From Bdellovibrionales bacterium (GTDB lineage Bacteria; Bdellovibrionota; Bdellovibrionia; Bdellovibrionales; JAMPXM01), in NCBI GenBank assembly GCA_043784965.1, contig JAYVXS010000085.1:1-48350 (forward strand): 48,350 bases of DNA, given 5' to 3'. Shown here piece by piece: positions 1 to 48,350 of this stretch. The position numbers and the translations under genes were made by a program. Each line of letters opens with the position of its first letter. Within the stretch, counting starts at the first letter, position 1. Below the pieces are notes generated by a model. It saw nothing but the letters and a program-made list of their open reading frames with translations, did no database searches and was not told where the DNA came from.

Positions 1-85
1 TGAAAAGGTCTCGAAAACGCCAGGAGCGAAGCGCCCAGACTAGCGAAGCGGCGATTGCAACAGAAATCTGATGAAATATCCGGGC
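1..85 (+). mobile_element. Repeat family A (MITE-like), right half, cut by the window start
   Basis: Near-identical to 4300-4384 and the exact reverse complement of 48261-48345. Ends CTGATGAAATATCCGGGC followed by TA (86-87). Confidence 0.9.
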
Positions 86-87
86 TA

Positions 88-174
88 GTTACGTAGTGCA
101 GTCTGGAGGCAGTTTCGGGGCAGCTGCGACTGCTTGCAGTTTTTCGGTTTCGGTCCCGGTTAGGGGTTGGTCAG
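88..174 (-). repeat. Repeat family B copy, abutting the family A end
   Basis: Reverse complement aligns with 13897-13984 (AACCGGGACCGAAACCGAAAAACTGCAAGC...CTACGTAA). Confidence 0.85.
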
Positions 175-308: not shown

Positions 309-356
309 CAGGTGCAGGTGCAGGTACAGGTACAGGTGCAGGTACAGGTGCAGGCG
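309..356. repeat. Hexamer tandem repeat (CAGGTR) x8
   Basis: CAGGTG CAGGTG CAGGTA CAGGTA CAGGTG CAGGTA CAGGTG CAGGCG read directly. Confidence 0.9.
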
Positions 357-410
357 TGGGCGTTCGTCAGGGTAGAGATATTCCCTCTCGCTAAATTTGA
401 TTTTCGCGAA

Positions 411-461: not shown

Positions 462-1796
462 ATGAAGTTCGAATTTCAACCAGCCCCTTCTCATTATTTT
501 TCTGGCAGTGCCAAGTTTGCTGCTGGCCCCAAGGGCACGGGCCCAAATACGACCAATAGCGAAGAGACCTGGTTGAATTGGAAGTGGCAAATGCAAAACG
601 CCCTTAAAACTAAAGCGGACTTTGCCCAGTATATTGAGCTAACGCCAGAAGAAGAGATGGGTTTTGCTACTGATTTTTCTGTTCGCTGTACGCCATATTA
701 TATGAGTCTTGCTATTGGTAAGGGTCCACAAGACCCGATTCGAAAAATTATTATTCCGACTAGCCATGAAAGTCTGCCAGGTCTACAAGAGATGCTTGAT
801 CCTTTGGGTGAAAGAAAGAATAGCCCGGCGCCGCGTGTAATTCATCGCTATCCAGATCGCGCCCTTTTGTTGGTGACGGATACCTGTAGTGTATATTGTA
901 GGTATTGCACTCGCAAACATTTCACCGCGACCGATCAGGCGTTCATCAATTCATCGCAATACGACCAAGCGCTTAGTTATTTTAAATCTCAAAAATCGCT
1001 TCGCGAAGTCATTCTGACTGGTGGAGACCCACTCACCCTAAGTGATGAATTACTTGAAAAAGTGGTGAGTGATCTATCTTCGATCGATCATATTGAGTTG
1101 ATTCGCTTGGGAACACGTATGCCTGTGGTTTGTCCGATGCGAGTGACAGACTCACTGGTATCTAGGCTAAAAAAATATCATCCAATTTTTGTGATGACCC
1201 ACTTCAATCATCCCCGTGAGGTAACACTTGAAGCTTCGCAGGCGCTGCTGAAGTTTGTCGACAATGGCTTTCCGGTATTTAATCAGTTGGTGTTATTGAA
1301 CGGCGTAAATAATCATGCGGCCATTGTTCAGGCTTTATCCCGGCGATTGTTAAGTTTGCGAACCAAGCCCTATTATATGTTTCAATGCGATCCTAGTTTT
1401 GGCAGTGATCATCTGCGAACCTCTGTTCGTGATTCACTGGCCATACAAAAGGAGTTGTGGGGAAAGCTTTCTGGGCTGGCAATGCCAAATCTAAGTTTAG
1501 ATATTCCCAGTGGTGGCGGAAAGGTCGGGCTCGTTCCCGATTTTCACGTTTCGACTTCAACAACTGCTTCAGGTATTGAAACTCGCAATTTTAAAGGATG
1601 GGATGGGATCGAAAGTGCATACATCAGTCCTTCTGATTCACAAATTCGAAAGCCCATTGATTTTCAAAATTATATGGCGGAGTGGGATGCTCTTAATTTT
1701 ACAGTAAACGGCAATTTAATTGGTGCTTTAAATGTTACCTTTAATGCTACTGTCAAACGCGCTCAAGACGAGCATATTTTACACGAAATTTCTTAA
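462..1796 (+). CDS. kamA: KamA-family radical SAM protein (lysine 2,3-aminomutase-like)
   Basis: HRYPDR, CSVYCRYC (CxxxCxxC), LTGGDPL, THFNHPRE, NQLVLL, and PLP-lysine motif GGGKV. Confidence 0.85.
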   Translation: MKFEFQPAPSHYFSGSAKFAAGPKGTGPNTTNSEETWLNWKWQMQNALKTKADFAQYIELTPEEEMGFATDFSVRCTPYYMSLAIGKGPQDPIRKIIIPTSHESLPGLQEMLDPLGERKNSPAPRVIHRYPDRALLLVTDTCSVYCRYCTRKHFTATDQAFINSSQYDQALSYFKSQKSLREVILTGGDPLTLSDELLEKVVSDLSSIDHIELIRLGTRMPVVCPMRVTDSLVSRLKKYHPIFVMTHFNHPREVTLEASQALLKFVDNGFPVFNQLVLLNGVNNHAAIVQALSRRLLSLRTKPYYMFQCDPSFGSDHLRTSVRDSLAIQKELWGKLSGLAMPNLSLDIPSGGGKVGLVPDFHVSTSTTASGIETRNFKGWDGIESAYISPSDSQIRKPIDFQNYMAEWDALNFTVNGNLIGALNVTFNATVKRAQDEHILHEIS

Positions 1797-4038
1797 CTGA
1801 ATTATCTGCGAAAACTACGCTCACATCCATCGTATCACCGATACCATCTGTTTTGAAAATCGTACCTATACCAAATGTTGGGTGGCGGATGCGCATACCT
1901 TTTTTAAAGGCATCCTCGCCGCTATCGTCAAAACTTTCGTCAGAAAAGTCTTCATAACTTGGATGATCAGTTTCGCTGCGCTTAAAATTTCTGCCGCCGC
2001 TCCCAGGCGAGCTAGGCGAAGAAGAACGCGAATAGTCCGCATACTTTTGCATGAAGCGAGAGGATTGCTGAGAGCTTTGCATTTCAACAAACTCAGGCGG
2101 GATCTCTTTTAAAAATCGGCTGGGGGGGTTGTTCTGATCAGAGCCCCAGACCTTGCGAGACCGAGCATAAGTTAAGGTTAATTTTTTTTCAGCGCGAGTC
2201 ATCCCGACATACATTAAGCGACGCTCCTCTTCAAGGCGACTCTCAGATTCATCGTTAATAGATTGCCCGCTCGGAAAAAGTCCTTCTTCTAGGCCAACGA
2301 TAAATACCACGGGATACTCAAGACCTTTTGAGATATGTAAGGTCATCATGGTAATGGTATTTTCATTATCATTCATGGAGTCGACATCGCTAATTAGAGC
2401 CATTTCTTCTAGAAAGCTTTGCAAATTGGCCTCATCGCCGCGTTCTTCTGCAAATTTTGCTATTGCATTGGCCAATTCTTCTAAGTTCTGCAGTCGCGAG
2501 TCAGCCTCGGGAGAATCTTCTAACTTGAGCTTTACGGTGTATTCGGTTTGCACCAGTAATTCAGAATAAAAATCATCAAGTGAAAGAACCTGTACTTTTT
2601 CTCTCAAGACCTGCATGAGCTCTAAAAAACGGCGAATTTTACTCGTGGTCCCCGAATTAAATTCTTTATGGTCTACAGCATGTGCGGCAGCTTGAATGAG
2701 ACTCACCCCAAGCTTTTGTGCGACTTCTTCTAGTTTTTCAATCGTGGTTTTACCGATGCCACGAGCTGGAACATTGATCACTCGCTTAAAAGCAATATCA
2801 TCAGTTGGATTCAAAACGAGCTTTAAATAGCCAAGTACGTCTTTGATTTCAAGACGATCATAGAATTTCATTCCGCCGACGATTTTATAGGCAAGTGCAT
2901 TACTGCGGAGTTGCTCTTCAAGCACTCGAGATTGAGCATTGGTTCGATAAAAAATGGCAATATCACTTCTTGATAGATCAGTATTGCTTAAAACGTTTTG
3001 AATTTGTCTTACCACGTAACGAGCTTCCTCGTACTCATCTTGTTCTTCACGAACCGTGATCAATTCACCATCGTCATTTTCAGTAAAGAGTTCTTTTACT
3101 TTTCGTTCACTATTGTAGGCCACGACTTTCGTGGCAGCACCTACAATGGTCTTTGTTGAGCGATAATTTTGTTCAAGCTTGATGACGACTGCTTCTGGAA
3201 AATCCTTTTCGAAGTCCAAAATATTTTGAATGTCAGCACCTCGCCAAGAATAAATGCTTTGATCTTCATCTCCGACGACGCACAAATTTCTTGTTTTATT
3301 GGCGAGGGCCTTTACCAAGAGGTATTGAATGTGATTGGTGTCTTGATATTCATCAACCATCAAAAAGCGAAAACGTTCTTGATAGGCTTCAAGTACCCCA
3401 GGGTGACCTTGAAAAAGTTGGTATACTTTTAGTAGCAAATCTTGAAAATCAACGGCATTGGACTGCCTCATTTGCTTTTCGTACTCAGCGTAAACCTCAA
3501 TGGATTGCGCATCAAAGCTGAGGTTGTTATTGCGCTTAGAACTATTCAGTTCCTCAGGCGTCACCGCCAAAGTTTTGGCATTATTTATTCGTGCCTGAAA
3601 GTTCTTTGCCGGAAAGACCTTTTCATCAAGTTGGAGTCTGTTGCAAACCTGTTTAACCATTGAAAGTTGATCAGTTTGATCATAGATTGTGAAGGTGCTT
3701 TGATAGCCGAGCAATTCAATGTGACTTCTCAAAATGCGGGCGCAAATCGAATGAAATGTCGAAATCCACATTCGATCAAAAACTGGTATTTCAAGCTCGC
3801 CAAGTAAACTAAGAATGCGAGCTTCCATTTCACGTGCTGCTTTATTTGTAAAGGTCACTGCCAAAATTTCTTGTGGTGTGGCAAGCCCTTGAGCAACTAG
3901 ATTTGCGGTTCGATAGGTGAGTACCCGGGTTTTGCCGCTGCCAGCTCCGGCTAAAATGAGCAGGGGGCCCTCGAGGGCCTGCATGGCTTCAAACTGTTTT
4001 TTATTCAATGTGCTTGCAAGATTTTCAAGTGAACTCAT
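1753..4038 (-). CDS. uvrD: ATP-dependent DNA helicase UvrD/PcrA
   Basis: AGAGSGKT, TFTNKAA, DEYQDTN, VGDEDQSIYSWRGA, YRTNAQSR, KGLEY, YVGMTRA and a C-terminal HPTFG Tudor-like domain. Start set to ATG 4038 (ORF open to 4080). Confidence 0.95.
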   Translation of the reverse strand: MSSLENLASTLNKKQFEAMQALEGPLLILAGAGSGKTRVLTYRTANLVAQGLATPQEILAVTFTNKAAREMEARILSLLGELEIPVFDRMWISTFHSICARILRSHIELLGYQSTFTIYDQTDQLSMVKQVCNRLQLDEKVFPAKNFQARINNAKTLAVTPEELNSSKRNNNLSFDAQSIEVYAEYEKQMRQSNAVDFQDLLLKVYQLFQGHPGVLEAYQERFRFLMVDEYQDTNHIQYLLVKALANKTRNLCVVGDEDQSIYSWRGADIQNILDFEKDFPEAVVIKLEQNYRSTKTIVGAATKVVAYNSERKVKELFTENDDGELITVREEQDEYEEARYVVRQIQNVLSNTDLSRSDIAIFYRTNAQSRVLEEQLRSNALAYKIVGGMKFYDRLEIKDVLGYLKLVLNPTDDIAFKRVINVPARGIGKTTIEKLEEVAQKLGVSLIQAAAHAVDHKEFNSGTTSKIRRFLELMQVLREKVQVLSLDDFYSELLVQTEYTVKLKLEDSPEADSRLQNLEELANAIAKFAEERGDEANLQSFLEEMALISDVDSMNDNENTITMMTLHISKGLEYPVVFIVGLEEGLFPSGQSINDESESRLEEERRLMYVGMTRAEKKLTLTYARSRKVWGSDQNNPPSRFLKEIPPEFVEMQSSQQSSRFMQKYADYSRSSSPSSPGSGGRNFKRSETDHPSYEDFSDESFDDSGEDAFKKGMRIRHPTFGIGTIFKTDGIGDTMDVSVVFADNSVKKFRVKYARLERV

Positions 4039-4196
4039 CGAATCTTTCTTCAGGATTTTATAGGGCTGAGGTGCTAGCACCCATTTATTTCGTTATAGCC
4101 CGAATTCAGCCCTCACTTATACAAATCGAAAGCAGCTTTGTGAAGGAGTATTCGTGCAAATTTGAGCCTGATTCTTGCTTAGGATCAGGCTATCTA

Positions 4197-4384
4197 GCCC
4201 GGATACTTCATCAGTTTCGTCGTGAAATCGTTGATTCGCAGACTGGCCTGGCGCTTGAGAGACCTTTGAGTGAGGCAACCTCAAAGCAGGTTATCGCAAT
4301 GAAAAGGTCTCGAAAACGCCAGGAGCGGAGCGCCCAGACTAGCGAAGCGGCGATTGCAACAGAAATCTGATGAAATATCCGGGT
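4197..4384 (+). mobile_element. Repeat family A, full-length 188-bp copy
   Basis: TA|GCCCGGATACTTCATCAG...CTGATGAAATATCCGGGT|TA. Terminal inverted repeats of ~18 bp, extensive internal self-complementarity, no transposase. Confidence 0.9.
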
Positions 4385-4550
4385 TAAGTACTTACAATGA
4401 TTTCTTGACTTTTTTGGAGCTTTATATTGATTTTGGTTCGCTTTCTAGACTTGGTGTGCTAGTCTTTAAAACTGAACCGGTCCGAATTAAGAGTCTTTGG
4501 CGTTTTTTGTCCGATCTCTGAAGCGGCCACCCGACCCCTAGGAGGAATTC

Positions 4551-4898
4551 ATGGGCAGAAAACTATACGTAGGAAATTTATCTTACCAAACTACAGACGA
4601 GACCCTTTCGTCACGATTCCAAGAATTTGGAACTGTTGAGAGCGCTCGCGTGATCACTGATCGCGAAACTGGACGAAGCAAGGGTTTTGCTTTCGTTGAG
4701 ATGTCATCAGATCAAGAGGCTGCAGCTGCGGTAACTGGGCTTGATGGTCAAGAATTTGAAGGCCGAAACCTAAAGGTTTCTGAGGCACGTCCACAAGAAA
4801 ACACTGGTCGTGGTGGTGGTGGCGGCCGTGGCGGCGGCGGCGGCGGTCGTGACTTTGGCGGTGGCGGTGGCGGTGGCGGAAGAACAAATCGCTGGTAG
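4551..4898 (+). CDS. RRM RNA-binding protein with Gly-rich tail
   Basis: RNP2 LYVGNL, RNP1 KGFAFVEM, GGRGGG tail, AGGAGG RBS. Confidence 0.95.
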   Translation: MGRKLYVGNLSYQTTDETLSSRFQEFGTVESARVITDRETGRSKGFAFVEMSSDQEAAAAVTGLDGQEFEGRNLKVSEARPQENTGRGGGGGRGGGGGGRDFGGGGGGGGRTNRW

Positions 4899-13856: not shown

Positions 13857-13896
13857 GACAATTAGACCGATTTCAGATGCGGTCCCCACTTTATAA

Positions 13897-13984
13897 ACTG
13901 ACCCACCCATAACCGGGACCGAAACCGAAAAACTGCAAGCCGTCGCCGCTGCCCCGAAACTGCCGCTAGATTGCTCTACGTAAT
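13897..13984 (+). repeat. Repeat family B, longest copy, with no A insertion
   Basis: ACTGACCCACCCATAACCGGGACCGAAACCGAAAAACTGCAAGC...CTACGTAAT, followed by TA-GACCAACAA. Confidence 0.85.
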
Positions 13985-14006
13985 TAGACCAACAATAAAT
14001 CCCGGG

Positions 14007-24345: not shown

Positions 24346-24394
24346 CCAGTGCTCTTGAATCCTCTGCCGATCAACTAGCAGCCAATTTATATAG

Positions 24395-24471
24395 ACTGAC
24401 TCACCCATAATCGGGACCGAAACCGAAAAACTGCAAGCAGCCGTTGCTGCCGCTAAACTGCCGCTAAACTG
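24395..24471 (+). repeat. Repeat family B copy, 3'-truncated, with an internal 11-bp duplication
   Basis: ACTGACTCACCCATAATCGGGACCGAAACCGAAAAACTGCAAGC... followed by (CTGCCGCTAAA) x2. Confidence 0.85.
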
Positions 24472-27595: not shown

Positions 27596-27627
27596 CTAGT
27601 CGCGAGGTCTAATATTAGCCCCGGCTA

Positions 27628-27826
27628 GCCCGGATATTTCATCAGTTTCGTGGTGAAATCGTTGATTCGCAGACTGGCCTGGCGATTGAGAGACCTTTGA
27701 ATGAGGCATGAGTGAGGCAACCTCAAATCAGGTTGTCGCAATGAAAAGGTCTCGAAAACTCCAGAAGCGAAGTGCCCAGACTAGCAAAGCGGCGATTGCA
27801 ACAGAAATCTGATGAAATCTCCGGGC
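27628..27826 (+). mobile_element. Repeat family A, full-length copy with an 11-bp internal duplication
   Basis: CTA|GCCCGGATATTTCATCAG...CTGATGAAATCTCCGGGC|TAG, colinear with 4197-4384. Confidence 0.9.
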
Positions 27827-27867
27827 TAGGACGGGCCTCCGAGAGCCTGTATAAGAGAGCTTTCAAG

Positions 27868-36541: not shown

Positions 36542-36598
36542 CTGAAATTGCACACTAGCCAAGGATATTATTGTGATCGTTTGCCCACTTGAGGGTTA

Positions 36599-36693
36599 AC
36601 CCGGATTTTTCAAAAGTCTCGAAAACGCCAGGAGCGAAGCGCCCAGACTAGCGAAGCGGCGATTGCAACAGAAATCTGATGAAATATCCGGGT
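36599..36693 (+). mobile_element. Repeat family A, internally deleted 95-bp copy
   Basis: TA|ACCCGGATTTTTCA joined to the right half ...GAAATATCCGGGT|TA. Confidence 0.88.
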
Positions 36694-36986
36694 TAGATCT
36701 GCTCGAAGGAAATTTCAACTGCAAGTTTATGGCCCTTAGTTGAATTGCACGCCTTACAGCTTGGCACAATATTTTTTTTATTTGATTTTCCGCCTCGAGA
36801 AAGTGGAATTAAGTGCTCCATGGTGAGCTCTGCTTTGAGAAACTTAGTTCCGCAATGATGACAAAGGCCGGGACCGATCTGCTGCTTCCACCATTGACTG
36901 GCTTTGAGCTCTTGCGATCTAAGGCGCTCTTTTCTAATCTGTTCGGGACTGACAAATCCTTCTAAAATCATCCCTATCCCTAACAT
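36693..36986 (-). CDS. Small HNH endonuclease family protein
   Basis: CHHC, TMEHLIPLSRGG, NIVPSCKACN. Confidence 0.88.
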   Translation of the reverse strand: MLGIGMILEGFVSPEQIRKERLRSQELKASQWWKQQIGPGLCHHCGTKFLKAELTMEHLIPLSRGGKSNKKNIVPSCKACNSTKGHKLAVEISFEQI

Positions 36987-38439: not shown

Positions 38440-38609
38440 ACCCAAAATAAAACTAGTCCTTTCTAAAACCTAGACCAAGTTCTTTCTTTTTTTTAGTTGG
38501 TAAAAGGTTAAAAACCGGAGCTCAGGGACGGTGAGACAGTTAAACTGATTTCAGGGGCAGGCGCAGGGGCAGGCTCAACAATCAGCATGCCGGCCAATTT
38601 ATTCAAGCT

Positions 38610-38658
38610 ACCCATAACCGGGACCGAAACTGATGAAATATCCGGGCTAGACCAACAA
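38610..38658 (+). repeat. Chimeric B::A repeat remnant
   Basis: B part ACCCATAACCGGGACCGAAAC joined through a shared CGAAAC to the reversed A left end TGATGAAATATCCGGGC, then TA-GACCAACAA as at 13985. Confidence 0.85.
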
Positions 38659-47734: not shown

Positions 47735-48258
47735 CTAAAAATCTTTTTGCAAGATGGCTTCGCCACCCCGTCCGTCACGGACAACAAAAACAAAAGTATA
47801 ATGCCCCGTCACTGGGGGCAATTTTCCGGGCGTAAATTGATTTGAACTTAAAAAATCAGTTCGAATATATTGATAATCTCCTGCATTGCTGAACCATGTG
47901 ATCAGTAAATTCTCAGTAGACGCAACAAGTGTGCCGAGAGAATCTCGATAAGAATAGTTCTCTGCGGCGGCTGCCGGAATTGAAGGCAACAAAGATGCAA
48001 CTGCAGTGGGCATCGCCGCGAAACTGGTTCCAGAAACTAATATATCTAATATATCTGTGATGCTTGGATTTGCATTCTGAACGTGCCCCTGAGATACAAC
48101 AATTCTTCGAAAAGCTGAAGTGGAAGCTCCATCAGACGCAAGCAAGCTATAGGTCACAAGATAACTCACGCCATTGTAGATATTATTGCTATTTTGTCCC
48201 GCTAATAAATTAGTCGGAACTGCGACTGAAAATGCGTTTGCAAGCCCGGTATAAGACC
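47735..48258 (-). pseudogene. 3' part of a hypothetical gene interrupted by a family A element
   Basis: Frame stays open upstream of GTG 48169 (SYTGLANAFSVAVPTNLLAG...YNG) right up to the element's TA at 48259-48260. C-terminal VVRDGRGG. Confidence 0.65.
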
Positions 48259-48260
48259 TA

Positions 48261-48350
48261 GCCCGGATATTTCATCAGATTTCTGTTGCAATCGCCGCTT
48301 CGCTAGTCTGGGCGCTTCGCTCCTGGCGTTTTCGAGACCTTTTCACTGCG
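48261..48350 (-). mobile_element. Repeat family A, right half on the minus strand, cut by the window end
   Basis: 48258-48345 is the exact reverse complement of 1-88. Confidence 0.9.

What the first reader, a model, noticed from the sequence alone, without database searches (positions are those of the whole stretch)
4197..4384. Family A: abundant ~188-bp TA-flanked element that folds into one long rod
Seen: six copies or fragments in 48 kb (1-85, 4197-4384, 27628-27826, 36599-36693, 38625-38647, 48261-48350). Every intact end is RCCCGGA.. next to TA, in a CTAG, TTAA or TTAG context. Complementarity continues far beyond the terminal repeats in nested order: CCCGGATAYTTCATCAG/CTGATGAAATATCCGGG, TTTC/GAAA, AATCGTTG/CGGCGATT, TTCGC/GCGAA, CTGG/CCAG, CCTGGCG/CGCCAGG, GAGACCTTT/AAAGGTCTC, with a small apical hairpin (TGAGG-CAA-CCTCA or AACCT/AGGTT). 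Known: TA duplication is typical of IS630/Tc1-mariner and some IS5-family elements and their MITEs. Inference: a non-autonomous mobile element, mobilised in trans, whose ssDNA or RNA form is highly structured. I do not recognise it as a named family.
Basis: partly seen in the sequence, partly recalled or inferred. Interest (0 to 1): 0.8.

Follow-up and report, generated by a model that had tools for sequence, protein, structure and literature searches.

The report
IS1380-type MITE burst in a Bdellovibrionales genome
The repeat is a real, recently amplified 186-bp non-coding transposon whose ends match an IS1380-family insertion sequence rather than the mariner/IS630 type first suspected; it is an ordinary kind of element in an unusual family.

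Summary
All six window copies exist. The element folds into one rod (RNA -90.5/-92.0 kcal/mol, z -7.6/-10.0). It occupies 186 places in this 3.46-Mb, 356-contig genome, and 103 of 712 contig ends lie in it. The interpretation needs correcting. The element runs CCCGG...CCGGG (186 bp) and is flanked by a 4-bp YTAR duplication, not by TA: CTAG at 156 ends, TTAA at 41, CTAA and TTAG at 13 each, of 228 ends. Its 17-nt terminus is identical to the ends of a 1,595-bp IS1380-family IS with a 442-aa transposase (NF033539, 402.7 bits). That IS is found here only in pieces. It is complete in locus L031 and present in all three congeners, none of which has the MITE. No IS630-type transposase is present. 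Named relatives (ISPosp7, ISPa33, ISMaq4) in finished plasmids show the same CTAG|CCCGGAT...GGG|CTAG ends. Mobility is supported by a syntenic empty site, an element-free allele in another metagenome, and contig-end halves identical to the consensus. The rod shows essentially no compensatory covariation. Verdict: a new MITE family of a known kind, mobilised in trans by an ISPa33-like IS1380 transposase. Interest is modest.

The parts
1..84 (+). Right half of a copy (about element positions 104-187) cut by the contig start; followed by CTAG at 85-88
   Evidence: (D1, D4)
4194..4197 (.). Left flanking 4-mer CTAG of the reported copy
   Evidence: (D5)
4198..4383 (+). Full MITE copy, 186 bp, CCCGGATAC...ATATCCGGG; 17-nt terminal inverted repeat and a rod-like fold
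4384..4387 (.). Right flanking 4-mer TTAA. It is discordant with the left CTAG. The joint is repeat-mediated: 4296-4383 is identical to the start of C340 (reverse complement), which continues with CTAG
27625..27829 (+). Full copy of the 197-bp variant (one extra 11-nt apical unit) at 27629-27825, with CTAG on both sides; a syntenic empty site exists in congeners
36596..36696 (+). Internally deleted copy (36600-36692, 93 bp) with both termini, flanked by TTAA and TTAG; an allele without it is seen in run X5
38630..38650 (+). Solo 17-nt right terminus CTGATGAAATATCCGGG plus CTAG, abutting a family B repeat fragment
   Evidence: (D4, I12, I13)
48258..48350 (-). CTAG (48258-48261), then 89 nt of a copy in reverse orientation (right arm), cut by the contig end
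   Evidence: (D5, I1-I4)

Best explanation
Family A is a miniature inverted-repeat transposable element (MITE) of 186 bp. It encodes nothing and is moved in trans by the DDE transposase of an IS1380-family insertion sequence of the ISPa33/ISPosp7/ISMaq4 clade. The transposase recognises the shared 17-nt terminus CCCGGATATTTCATCAG. It inserts the element into YTAR tetranucleotides, strongly preferring CTAG, and duplicates those 4 bp. The element amplified recently to roughly 110 copies in this one Bdellovibrionales-like species. The surviving copies are almost all intergenic. The long rod follows from the element being an imperfect palindrome from end to end and is not demonstrably selected. 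Shown: copy number, termini, 4-mer statistics, identity of termini with the IS, IS family, absence from relatives, empty sites. Inferred: trans-mobilisation by that transposase, the 4-bp staggered cut, and the recency of the burst.
For: 1. Shared terminus. 228 ends carry the 17-mer with at most 2 mismatches. The same 17-mer also ends other units (X: C248, C235, C50, C344; Y: C225, C74, C220).

2. IS family. PF13701 hits C248 directly behind the X end, with the transposase C-terminus about 170 nt from it. L031 holds a complete 1,595-bp IS. Its right 471 nt are 99.8% identical to C248, and its left end matches C225 and C74. Its 442-aa ORF scores PF13701 543 bits and NF033539 (IS1380 equivalog) 402.7 bits.

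3. Presence of the IS. In G000 the pieces include C74 (IS 1-95) and C235 (IS 1502-1595), both 100% identical to L031 and both at contig ends. All 3 congeners carry the IS, with 22, 12 and 2 matches, yet 0 of 30 relatives have the MITE.

4. The 4-bp duplication. Flanking 4-mers are CTAG 156, TTAA 41, CTAA 13, TTAG 13 of 228 ends. The 4-mer is identical on both sides in 29 of 40 copies, P=0.0004, including TTAG/TTAG x2, CTAA/CTAA x1 and TTAA/TTAA x2; no TTAG/CTAA pair, which a TA model predicts, is seen. In finished plasmids, 4 of 4 named relatives read CTAG|CC(C/T)G(G/A)AT...GGG|CTAG.

5. The discordant CTAG/TTAA copies are repeat joints. 3 of 3 informative ones have flanks on different contigs in congeners. 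2 of 2 informative concordant copies are collinear.

6. Mobility. A syntenic empty site exists in G003 and G001. A single TTAA is present at the right-flank site in G002 and G001. An X5 contig lacks the 36600-36692 copy. 37 of 99 contig-end halves are 100% identical to the consensus, against 0 of 40 full copies at 99% or more. Variants with 1-3 extra apical units have themselves spread.

7. Target preference per 1000 genomic sites: CTAG 23.4, TTAA 1.84, CTAA/TTAG 1.06. Only 3 of 33 rebuilt empty sites lie in an ORF of 150 aa or more, against 81% of 400 random sites.
Against: No intact full-length transposase gene is assembled in G000 itself; there are only fragments, some with stops, so trans-mobilisation in this genome is inferred. 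Only the terminal 17-18 nt are shared with the IS and the interior is unrelated, so the element is not a simple deletion derivative. 11 of 40 full copies have unequal flanking 4-mers. Of 12 paired-end IS copies in other assemblies, only 5 have equal 4-mers, 5 differ by one transition, 1 is cut and 1 is doubtful. The synteny test of the hybrids rests on 5 informative loci only. Base-level reading of the syntenic empty site was not possible because of divergence. No transposition was observed experimentally.
Confidence: 0.88

Rival explanations
1. One reading: a MITE of the IS630/Tc1-mariner type (or an IS5-family type) that duplicates TA, with element ends RCCCGG...CCGGGY.
For: Every end is next to TA (223 of 228 have TA at -3/-2). 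IS630 is known, from my recollection, to prefer CTAG and duplicate TA. IS5-group elements duplicate YTAR (recalled). Three DDE_Tnp_1 loci and one DUF772 locus exist in G000.
Against: No PF13358 (DDE_3) and no PF13359 hit in a genome scored 100% complete. The base before TA and the 'first element base' co-vary: 197 of 223 ends are palindromic 4-mers. The two sides share the whole 4-mer more than chance. The DDE_Tnp_1 loci show no end resembling the 17-mer even at 5 mismatches. The terminus is identical to IS1380-family IS ends.
Confidence: 0.04
2. A piggyBac-like variant of the main explanation. The excised element carries the donor's 4-nt flank as an overhang, so that true insertions can end up with a donor-derived 4-mer on one side and a target-derived one on the other. 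This would explain the CTAG/TTAA hybrids and the one-transition discordances of IS copies.
For: IS1380-like elements are paired with piggyBac in print (PMC5718144, passage read). The junction TTAA/CTAG + CCC...GGG resembles piggyBac (recalled). 6 of 40 MITE copies and 5 of 12 IS copies have discordant YTAR 4-mers.
Against: 3 of 3 informative hybrids sit at synteny breaks. One has its matching half, with the concordant CTAG, on another contig end, so assembly paths or recombination between copies explain them. 4 of 4 relatives in finished plasmids are concordant CTAG/CTAG.
Confidence: 0.05
3. A family of structured RNA genes or REPIN-like palindromic repeats spread by a RAYT (Y1) transposase, selected for the hairpin.
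For: Very stable rod on both strands. Intergenic location. Slight excess of pair-keeping one-sided changes, 35 observed against 26.0 +- 3.7 expected. One Y1_Tnp hit in the genome.
Against: Rfam gives 0 matches at gathering threshold for the whole window and 0 at E<=1 for the element. Only 1 compensatory double change lies outside the target base in 64 pairs x 32 copies; 56 changes break pairs. Copies fold about 10 kcal/mol worse than the consensus. Both strands fold alike. The element has target duplications and IS-type termini. The Y1 contig C43 carries no family A copy.
Confidence: 0.03

Closest known systems
ISPa33 / ISPosp7 / ISMaq4 clade of the IS1380 family (names as annotated in PLSDB records)
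   Same: Terminus consensus CC(C/T)G(G/A)AT.T.TCA... and CTAG on both sides in 4 of 4 copies inspected. The partner IS of the MITE (L031) has a transposase 51-54% identical to them and scores as the IS1380 equivalog.
   Different: Those are autonomous 1.56-1.63-kb ISs. Family A is 186 bp, non-coding, shares only 17-18 terminal nt with its partner, and both its ends are of the IRR type (CATCAG).
Bacterial MITEs in general (e.g. Correia/NEMIS, ERIC, Nezha, MaeMITEs; names recalled, except MaeMITEa-h which are listed in PMC2779907, passage read)
   Same: Under 600 bp, terminal inverted repeats, target duplication, high copy number, intergenic, strong hairpin potential.
   Different: Here the partner is identified and belongs to IS1380. 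I found no paper linking a MITE to IS1380: searches (listings), with passages of PMC3542288, PMC2779907 and PMC3281130 read. ISfinder could not be queried, so a listed IS1380-derived MITE cannot be excluded.
piggyBac and its MITEs in eukaryotes (recalled)
   Same: 4-bp target duplication at a TA-centred palindrome (TTAA is used here at 41 of 228 ends), CCC...GGG termini, and a transposase superfamily paired with IS1380-like in PMC5718144.
   Different: The preferred target is CTAG, not TTAA. No sequence match to any solved structure. The mechanism (hairpin intermediate, seamless excision) is untested here.
REPINs mobilised by RAYTs
   Same: Abundant intergenic palindromic repeats that form hairpins.
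   Different: Family A has IS-type terminal repeats and target duplications. The only Y1 transposase hit is unlinked to it.

Membership tests
MITE | Short (<~600 bp) and without coding capacity | tested here: met
   186 bp. The only ORF across it (4008-4370) runs through the repeat; the copies carry indels and an internal deletion.
MITE | Terminal inverted repeats | tested here: met
   The 17-nt CCCGGATATTTCATCAG is present at both ends; 228 ends genome-wide.
MITE | Target-site duplication | tested here: met
   4-bp YTAR; identical on both sides in 29 of 40 copies, P=0.0004.
MITE | Multicopy with presence/absence differences between genomes | tested here: met
   186 places; 0 of 30 relatives; syntenic empty site; X5 allele without the copy.
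MITE | Termini shared with an autonomous IS that can supply transposase | tested here: met
   17 of 17 nt identical to IRR, 16 of 17 to IRL, of the L031 IS and of the G000 X/Y ends.
IS1380 family (as source of the transposase) | Transposase matches the IS1380 models | tested here: met
   PF13701 543.3 bits; NF033539 402.7 bits against a cut-off of 180.
IS1380 family (as source of the transposase) | 4-5-bp direct repeats and CC-starting ends (the family table is recalled; IS1247 DR 5 bp is in PMC3281130 Table 2) | tested here: met
   Ends start CCCGG; 4-bp YTAR.
IS1380 family (as source of the transposase) | Intact transposase gene in the same genome | tested here: inconclusive
   Only fragments in G000. 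Two contig ends are 100% identical to the intact L031 IS, and the bin holds no contig under about 2.5 kb, so a 1.6-kb repeat contig could have been lost.
IS630/Tc1-mariner-derived MITE | 2-bp TA duplication | tested here: not met
   The whole 4-mer is shared between sides; no TTAG/CTAA pairs.
IS630/Tc1-mariner-derived MITE | DDE_3 transposase available | tested here: not met
   0 hits for PF13358 in G000.
IS5-family-derived MITE | Termini shared with an IS5-type IS | tested here: not met
   Three DDE_Tnp_1 loci have no match to the 17-mer at 5 mismatches or fewer, apart from one chance-like internal site.
REPIN/RAYT | Association with a Y1 (RAYT) transposase gene; no target duplication | tested here: not met
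   One Y1_Tnp hit on C43, which holds no family A copy; target duplications are present.
Rfam RNA family | Match to a curated covariance model | tested here: not met
   0 matches at gathering threshold and 0 at E<=1.
piggyBac-like mechanism | Seamless excision through 4-nt overhangs and hairpin intermediates | not testable with these tools
   Only resemblance of target and termini; the structure model was too poor to compare.

The most novel reading that the evidence does not exclude
The ISPa33-like clade of IS1380 and this MITE transpose by a true piggyBac-type reaction: a 4-nt YTAR stagger, hairpin intermediates and footprint-free excision. That would make Family A the bacterial counterpart of eukaryotic piggyBac MITEs. 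It would also give a natural, very small cis element (17-nt ends) for seamless cut-and-paste at CTAG/TTAA in bacteria. A weaker add-on is that the end-to-end palindrome is kept because it helps synapsis or acts at the RNA level.
Probability: 0.25. Interest if true: 0.55.

Novelty: new member of a known kind. Interest (0 to 1): 0.3.

Why it matters
It explains much of why this genome assembles into 356 pieces: one contig end in seven lies in the element. It also warns that contigs crossing a copy, including this window at 4296-4383, may join unrelated loci. It documents a species-specific MITE burst in an uncultured Bdellovibrionales lineage whose congeners carry only the parent IS, which makes a clean natural case of MITE birth. 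It links a MITE to the IS1380 family, the prokaryotic relatives of piggyBac, with a defined 17-nt end and a CTAG/TTAA-type 4-bp target; I found no such link in the papers searched. The biology is otherwise ordinary.

Tried and rejected
**Fold comparison with piggyBac.** I aligned 5 intact transposases and predicted the structure. Mean pLDDT was 48.3 and pTM 0.45, too poor for a fold search, so none was run. I chose not to spend a large homologue search to deepen the alignment.

**PDB sequence search.** The transposase gave 0 hits at E<=10.

**C248.** This contig, a 3,774-bp unit assembled as a circle, was checked for a full transposase and holds only a truncated remnant.

**L011.** This Planctomycetaceae MAG contig holds only a 33-nt solo end, not an IS.

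**Relaxed end matching.** It gave no further complete IS copies.

**Uninformative synteny tests.** C308, C117 and C260 gave nothing, because my E-value cut-offs (1e-100, 1e-95) were strict.

**Base-level target reading.** It failed at the syntenic empty site of copy 27629-27825 because the intergenic sequence is too diverged.

**Reads.** No RNA holder was listed among the runs, so nothing can be said on expression. The k=31 contigs break at every copy, so they cannot test the hybrid joints or copy number.

**Donor-flank carry-over.** I considered it for the discordant 4-mers and did not favour it.

**Signals.** The promoter/terminator scan gave 1 promoter-like site (chance 0.5) and 0 terminators.

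**Literature.** Searches were read as listings. Passages were read from PMC10813416, PMC3281130, PMC5718144, PMC3542288 and PMC2779907. None describes an IS1380-derived MITE or a YTAR-specific IS1380 clade. Supplements were not seen and ISfinder cannot be queried here.

**Other.** I did not use the count of structure pairs; the pair counts are from my own scripts.

Full report
**What is there.** The other five places it listed are recovered by the repeat finder. The 188-nt stretch folds into one long rod. As RNA the + strand gives -90.5 kcal/mol (z -7.62) and the - strand -92.0 (z -10.03). As DNA it gives -52.9 (z -10.81). In each case 0 of 200 shuffles fold as well. Rfam has no match, either at gathering threshold over the whole window or at E<=1 over the element.

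**Abundance.** Blastn of the element against the genome gives 282 HSPs that merge into 186 places: 42 full-length, 101 cut by a contig end and 43 internal partial copies. 103 of the 712 contig ends lie inside the element. A search for the 17-nt terminal core, allowing up to 2 mismatches, finds 228 ends. Nine of these belong to other units, so there are about 110 copies. None of 30 related genomes, three of them in the same genus, has a match. The pieces at contig ends are closer to the family consensus than the copies the assembler could cross. Their mean identity is 98.4%, and 37 of 99 are 100% identical. The 40 full copies average 95.1%, and none reaches 99%. The youngest copies are therefore the ones that broke the assembly.

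**Ends and target.** Every end is preceded by YTAR: CTAG 156, TTAA 41, CTAA 13, TTAG 13, and 5 others, of 228. Three observations argue for a 4-bp duplication, with the element running CCCGG...CCGGG (186 bp).
- The base before TA and the base after it co-vary: 197 of 223 ends are palindromic 4-mers.
- The complete 4-mer is the same on both sides in 29 of 40 full copies. The mean of 20,000 shuffles is 21.4 (P=0.0004). The matches include TTAG/TTAG (2), CTAA/CTAA (1) and TTAA/TTAA (2). The TTAG/CTAA pair that a TA model predicts for a G...C element in a TTAA site is never seen.
- In finished plasmids, the named relatives of the partner IS all read CTAG|CC(C/T)G(G/A)AT...GGG|CTAG, 4 of 4.

Per 1000 available genomic sites, CTAG is used 23.4 times, TTAA 1.84 and CTAA/TTAG 1.06.

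**The discordant copies.** Six of 40 copies have CTAG on one side and TTAA on the other, and the reported copy is one of them. In two congeners the left flank of the window copy is followed by sequence that in G000 lies at the end of contig C340. C340 (reverse complement) begins with 88 nt identical to window 4296-4383 and then continues with CTAG. The right flank's site in G002 and G001 has a single TTAA with a different upstream neighbour. Two further hybrids (C1:5630, C91:5536) also have their flanks on different contigs in the congeners. One hybrid (C308) was uninformative. Two concordant copies (window 27629-27825 and C114) are collinear in G001 and G003, and two more were uninformative. 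So 3 of 3 informative hybrids are repeat-mediated joints, either assembly paths or real recombination, and 2 of 2 informative concordant copies are simple insertions. The numbers are small. I had considered a piggyBac-like carry-over of the donor's 4-nt flank as an alternative; these results do not favour it.

**The partner.** Twenty-nine ends continue differently from the standard MITE arms. Most are MITE variants. Four (type X: C248, C235, C50, C344) and three (type Y: C225, C74, C220) lead into other sequence. The IS1380-family Pfam model PF13701 hits C248 directly behind the X end. The transposase C-terminus (...YCARGEMENRIKEQQLDLFADRTSCHNWWPNQFRL...) points at the end and stops about 170 nt from it. 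The Y end runs into an ATG that opens MANCNQDSFEFPALK.

A pattern matching both IS ends but not the MITE ends finds 56 stretches in the genome collection and 37 in the metagenome collection. Twelve hold both ends 1.2-1.6 kb apart. L031 has a complete 1,595-bp IS. Its right 471 nt are 99.8% identical to C248, its left 142 nt are 94% identical to C225, and its intact 442-aa ORF starts with the same residues. That ORF scores 543.3 bits on PF13701 and 402.7 bits on NF033539, the IS1380 equivalog, whose cut-off is 180.

G000 itself has only pieces of this IS. Among them are two contig ends, C74 (IS 1-95) and C235 (IS 1502-1595), that are 100% identical to L031. The bin has no contig under about 2.5 kb, so a collapsed 1.6-kb repeat contig may simply be missing. 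All three congeners carry the IS, with 22, 12 and 2 matches and one complete copy at 86% identity. The MITE and the IS share only the terminal 17-18 nt. Both MITE ends are of the IRR type (CATCAG).

By contrast the genome has no DDE_3 (IS630) hit and no DDE_Tnp_4 hit. Its three DDE_Tnp_1 loci have no similar ends. Its one Y1 transposase hit lies on a contig without any family A copy.

**Evidence of movement.** Besides the species-restricted burst, three lines support mobility.
- The intergenic region that holds copy 27629-27825 is syntenic in G003, G001 and G002. It is about 60 nt long there, against about 300 nt in the window, and the element is absent from it.
- A contig of run X5, from a second study, replaces window 36575-36698 with 27 letters ending ...GGCTTAAAG. 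That is a single TTAA where the window has TTAA-element-TTAG.
- Length variants differ by one to three extra 11-12-nt units near the apex, and the one-unit form occurs in five copies, so variants have themselves spread.

Copies avoid genes. Only 3 of 33 rebuilt empty sites are spanned by an ORF of 150 aa or more, and one of those three is a hybrid joint. The figure for 400 random positions is 81%.

**The rod.** I aligned the 32 of 42 full copies that are 186-190 nt long, leaving out ten indel variants. The consensus structure has 64 pairs. Of the 2,048 cells, 1,946 are unchanged, 41 carry a one-sided change that keeps a pair, 56 carry a one-sided change that breaks it, and 5 carry a double change. 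Four of those five are at the outermost 'pair', which is the duplicated target base. Leaving that pair out, 35 of 88 one-sided changes keep a pair, against 26.0 +- 3.7 expected from the substitution spectrum at unpaired columns. This is a weak excess, made almost entirely of wobble pairs. Copies fold on average at -94.7 kcal/mol against -104.8 for the consensus. Paired columns change slightly less often than unpaired ones (2.6% against 4.0%). With about 3% divergence from the consensus the test has little power. As it stands, it gives no good evidence that the structure is maintained in individual copies. Both strands fold equally well, and there is no terminator-like tail or promoter signal beyond chance.

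**Host and known relatives.** A UvrD/PcrA-like helicase next to the element is 89, 86 and 83% identical to those of three Bdellovibrionales MAGs. 28 of the 56 genome-collection hits for the IS terminus come from two such MAGs. The nearest named ISs are ISPosp7 (54% aa), ISPa33 (52%) and ISMaq4 (51%). A review pairs piggyBac with IS1380-like elements (PMC5718144, passage read), and piggyBac studies use IS1380 as outgroup (PMC10813416, passages read). The resemblance of YTAR + CCC...GGG to piggyBac's TTAA + CCC...GGG is my recollection of piggyBac, not a test. A structure prediction meant to test the relationship was too poor to use.

**Verdict.** The class (non-autonomous, mobilised in trans) is right. 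The family and the duplication length were wrong. Family A is a new MITE family tied to an ISPa33-like IS1380 element. It inserts at YTAR with a 4-bp duplication, amplified recently in one species, and is responsible for much of the assembly fragmentation. I rate it a new member of a known kind, of modest interest. The most novel reading still open is a piggyBac-type seamless mechanism for this clade.

Noticed in passing
window 4296-4383 (and contig C340 end): The window contig probably joins two unrelated loci at this MITE copy, or records a real MITE-mediated rearrangement. In two congeners the UvrD-like gene (1753-4080) is followed by the gene that lies on G000 C340, not by the RRM-protein gene at 4551-4898.
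   Followed up: yes
window 82-174, 13886-13990, 24384-24471, 38591-38629: A second dispersed repeat (family B, about 100 nt, with different ends) has 88 blastn hits on 68 contigs. 12 of them lie within 15 nt of a family A copy, including two such junctions in the window.
   Followed up: partly
G000 contig C248 (3,872 bp): The contig begins and ends with the same 98 nt, so it is assembled as a 3,774-bp circle or tandem unit. It carries a truncated IS1380 remnant (IS positions 1079-1595), a 379-aa ORF of unknown family and small ORFs. It could be a small plasmid or a repeated unit.
   Followed up: partly
L011 1277-1372: A Planctomycetaceae MAG contig has, between gcvT and an RNase R-like gene, a 33-nt stretch identical to the MITE left end, 11 nt beyond the shared terminus, preceded by a degenerate second copy 60 nt upstream. 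This hints that the MITE's left arm derives from an element that also occurs in another phylum.
   Followed up: partly
window 4008-4370: A 120-aa ATG ORF runs from the upstream spacer through most of the MITE copy. It is probably spurious.
   Followed up: no
window 309-360 and 38552-38573: Short tandem CAGGTG/CAGGGG-type hexamer runs occur near the family A and B repeats.
   Followed up: no
G000 C119:5718-5917: One MITE copy sits in the CTAG at the centre of another palindrome (ctggttatcCTAG...CTAGgataaccgg), that is, nested in a different palindromic sequence.
   Followed up: no
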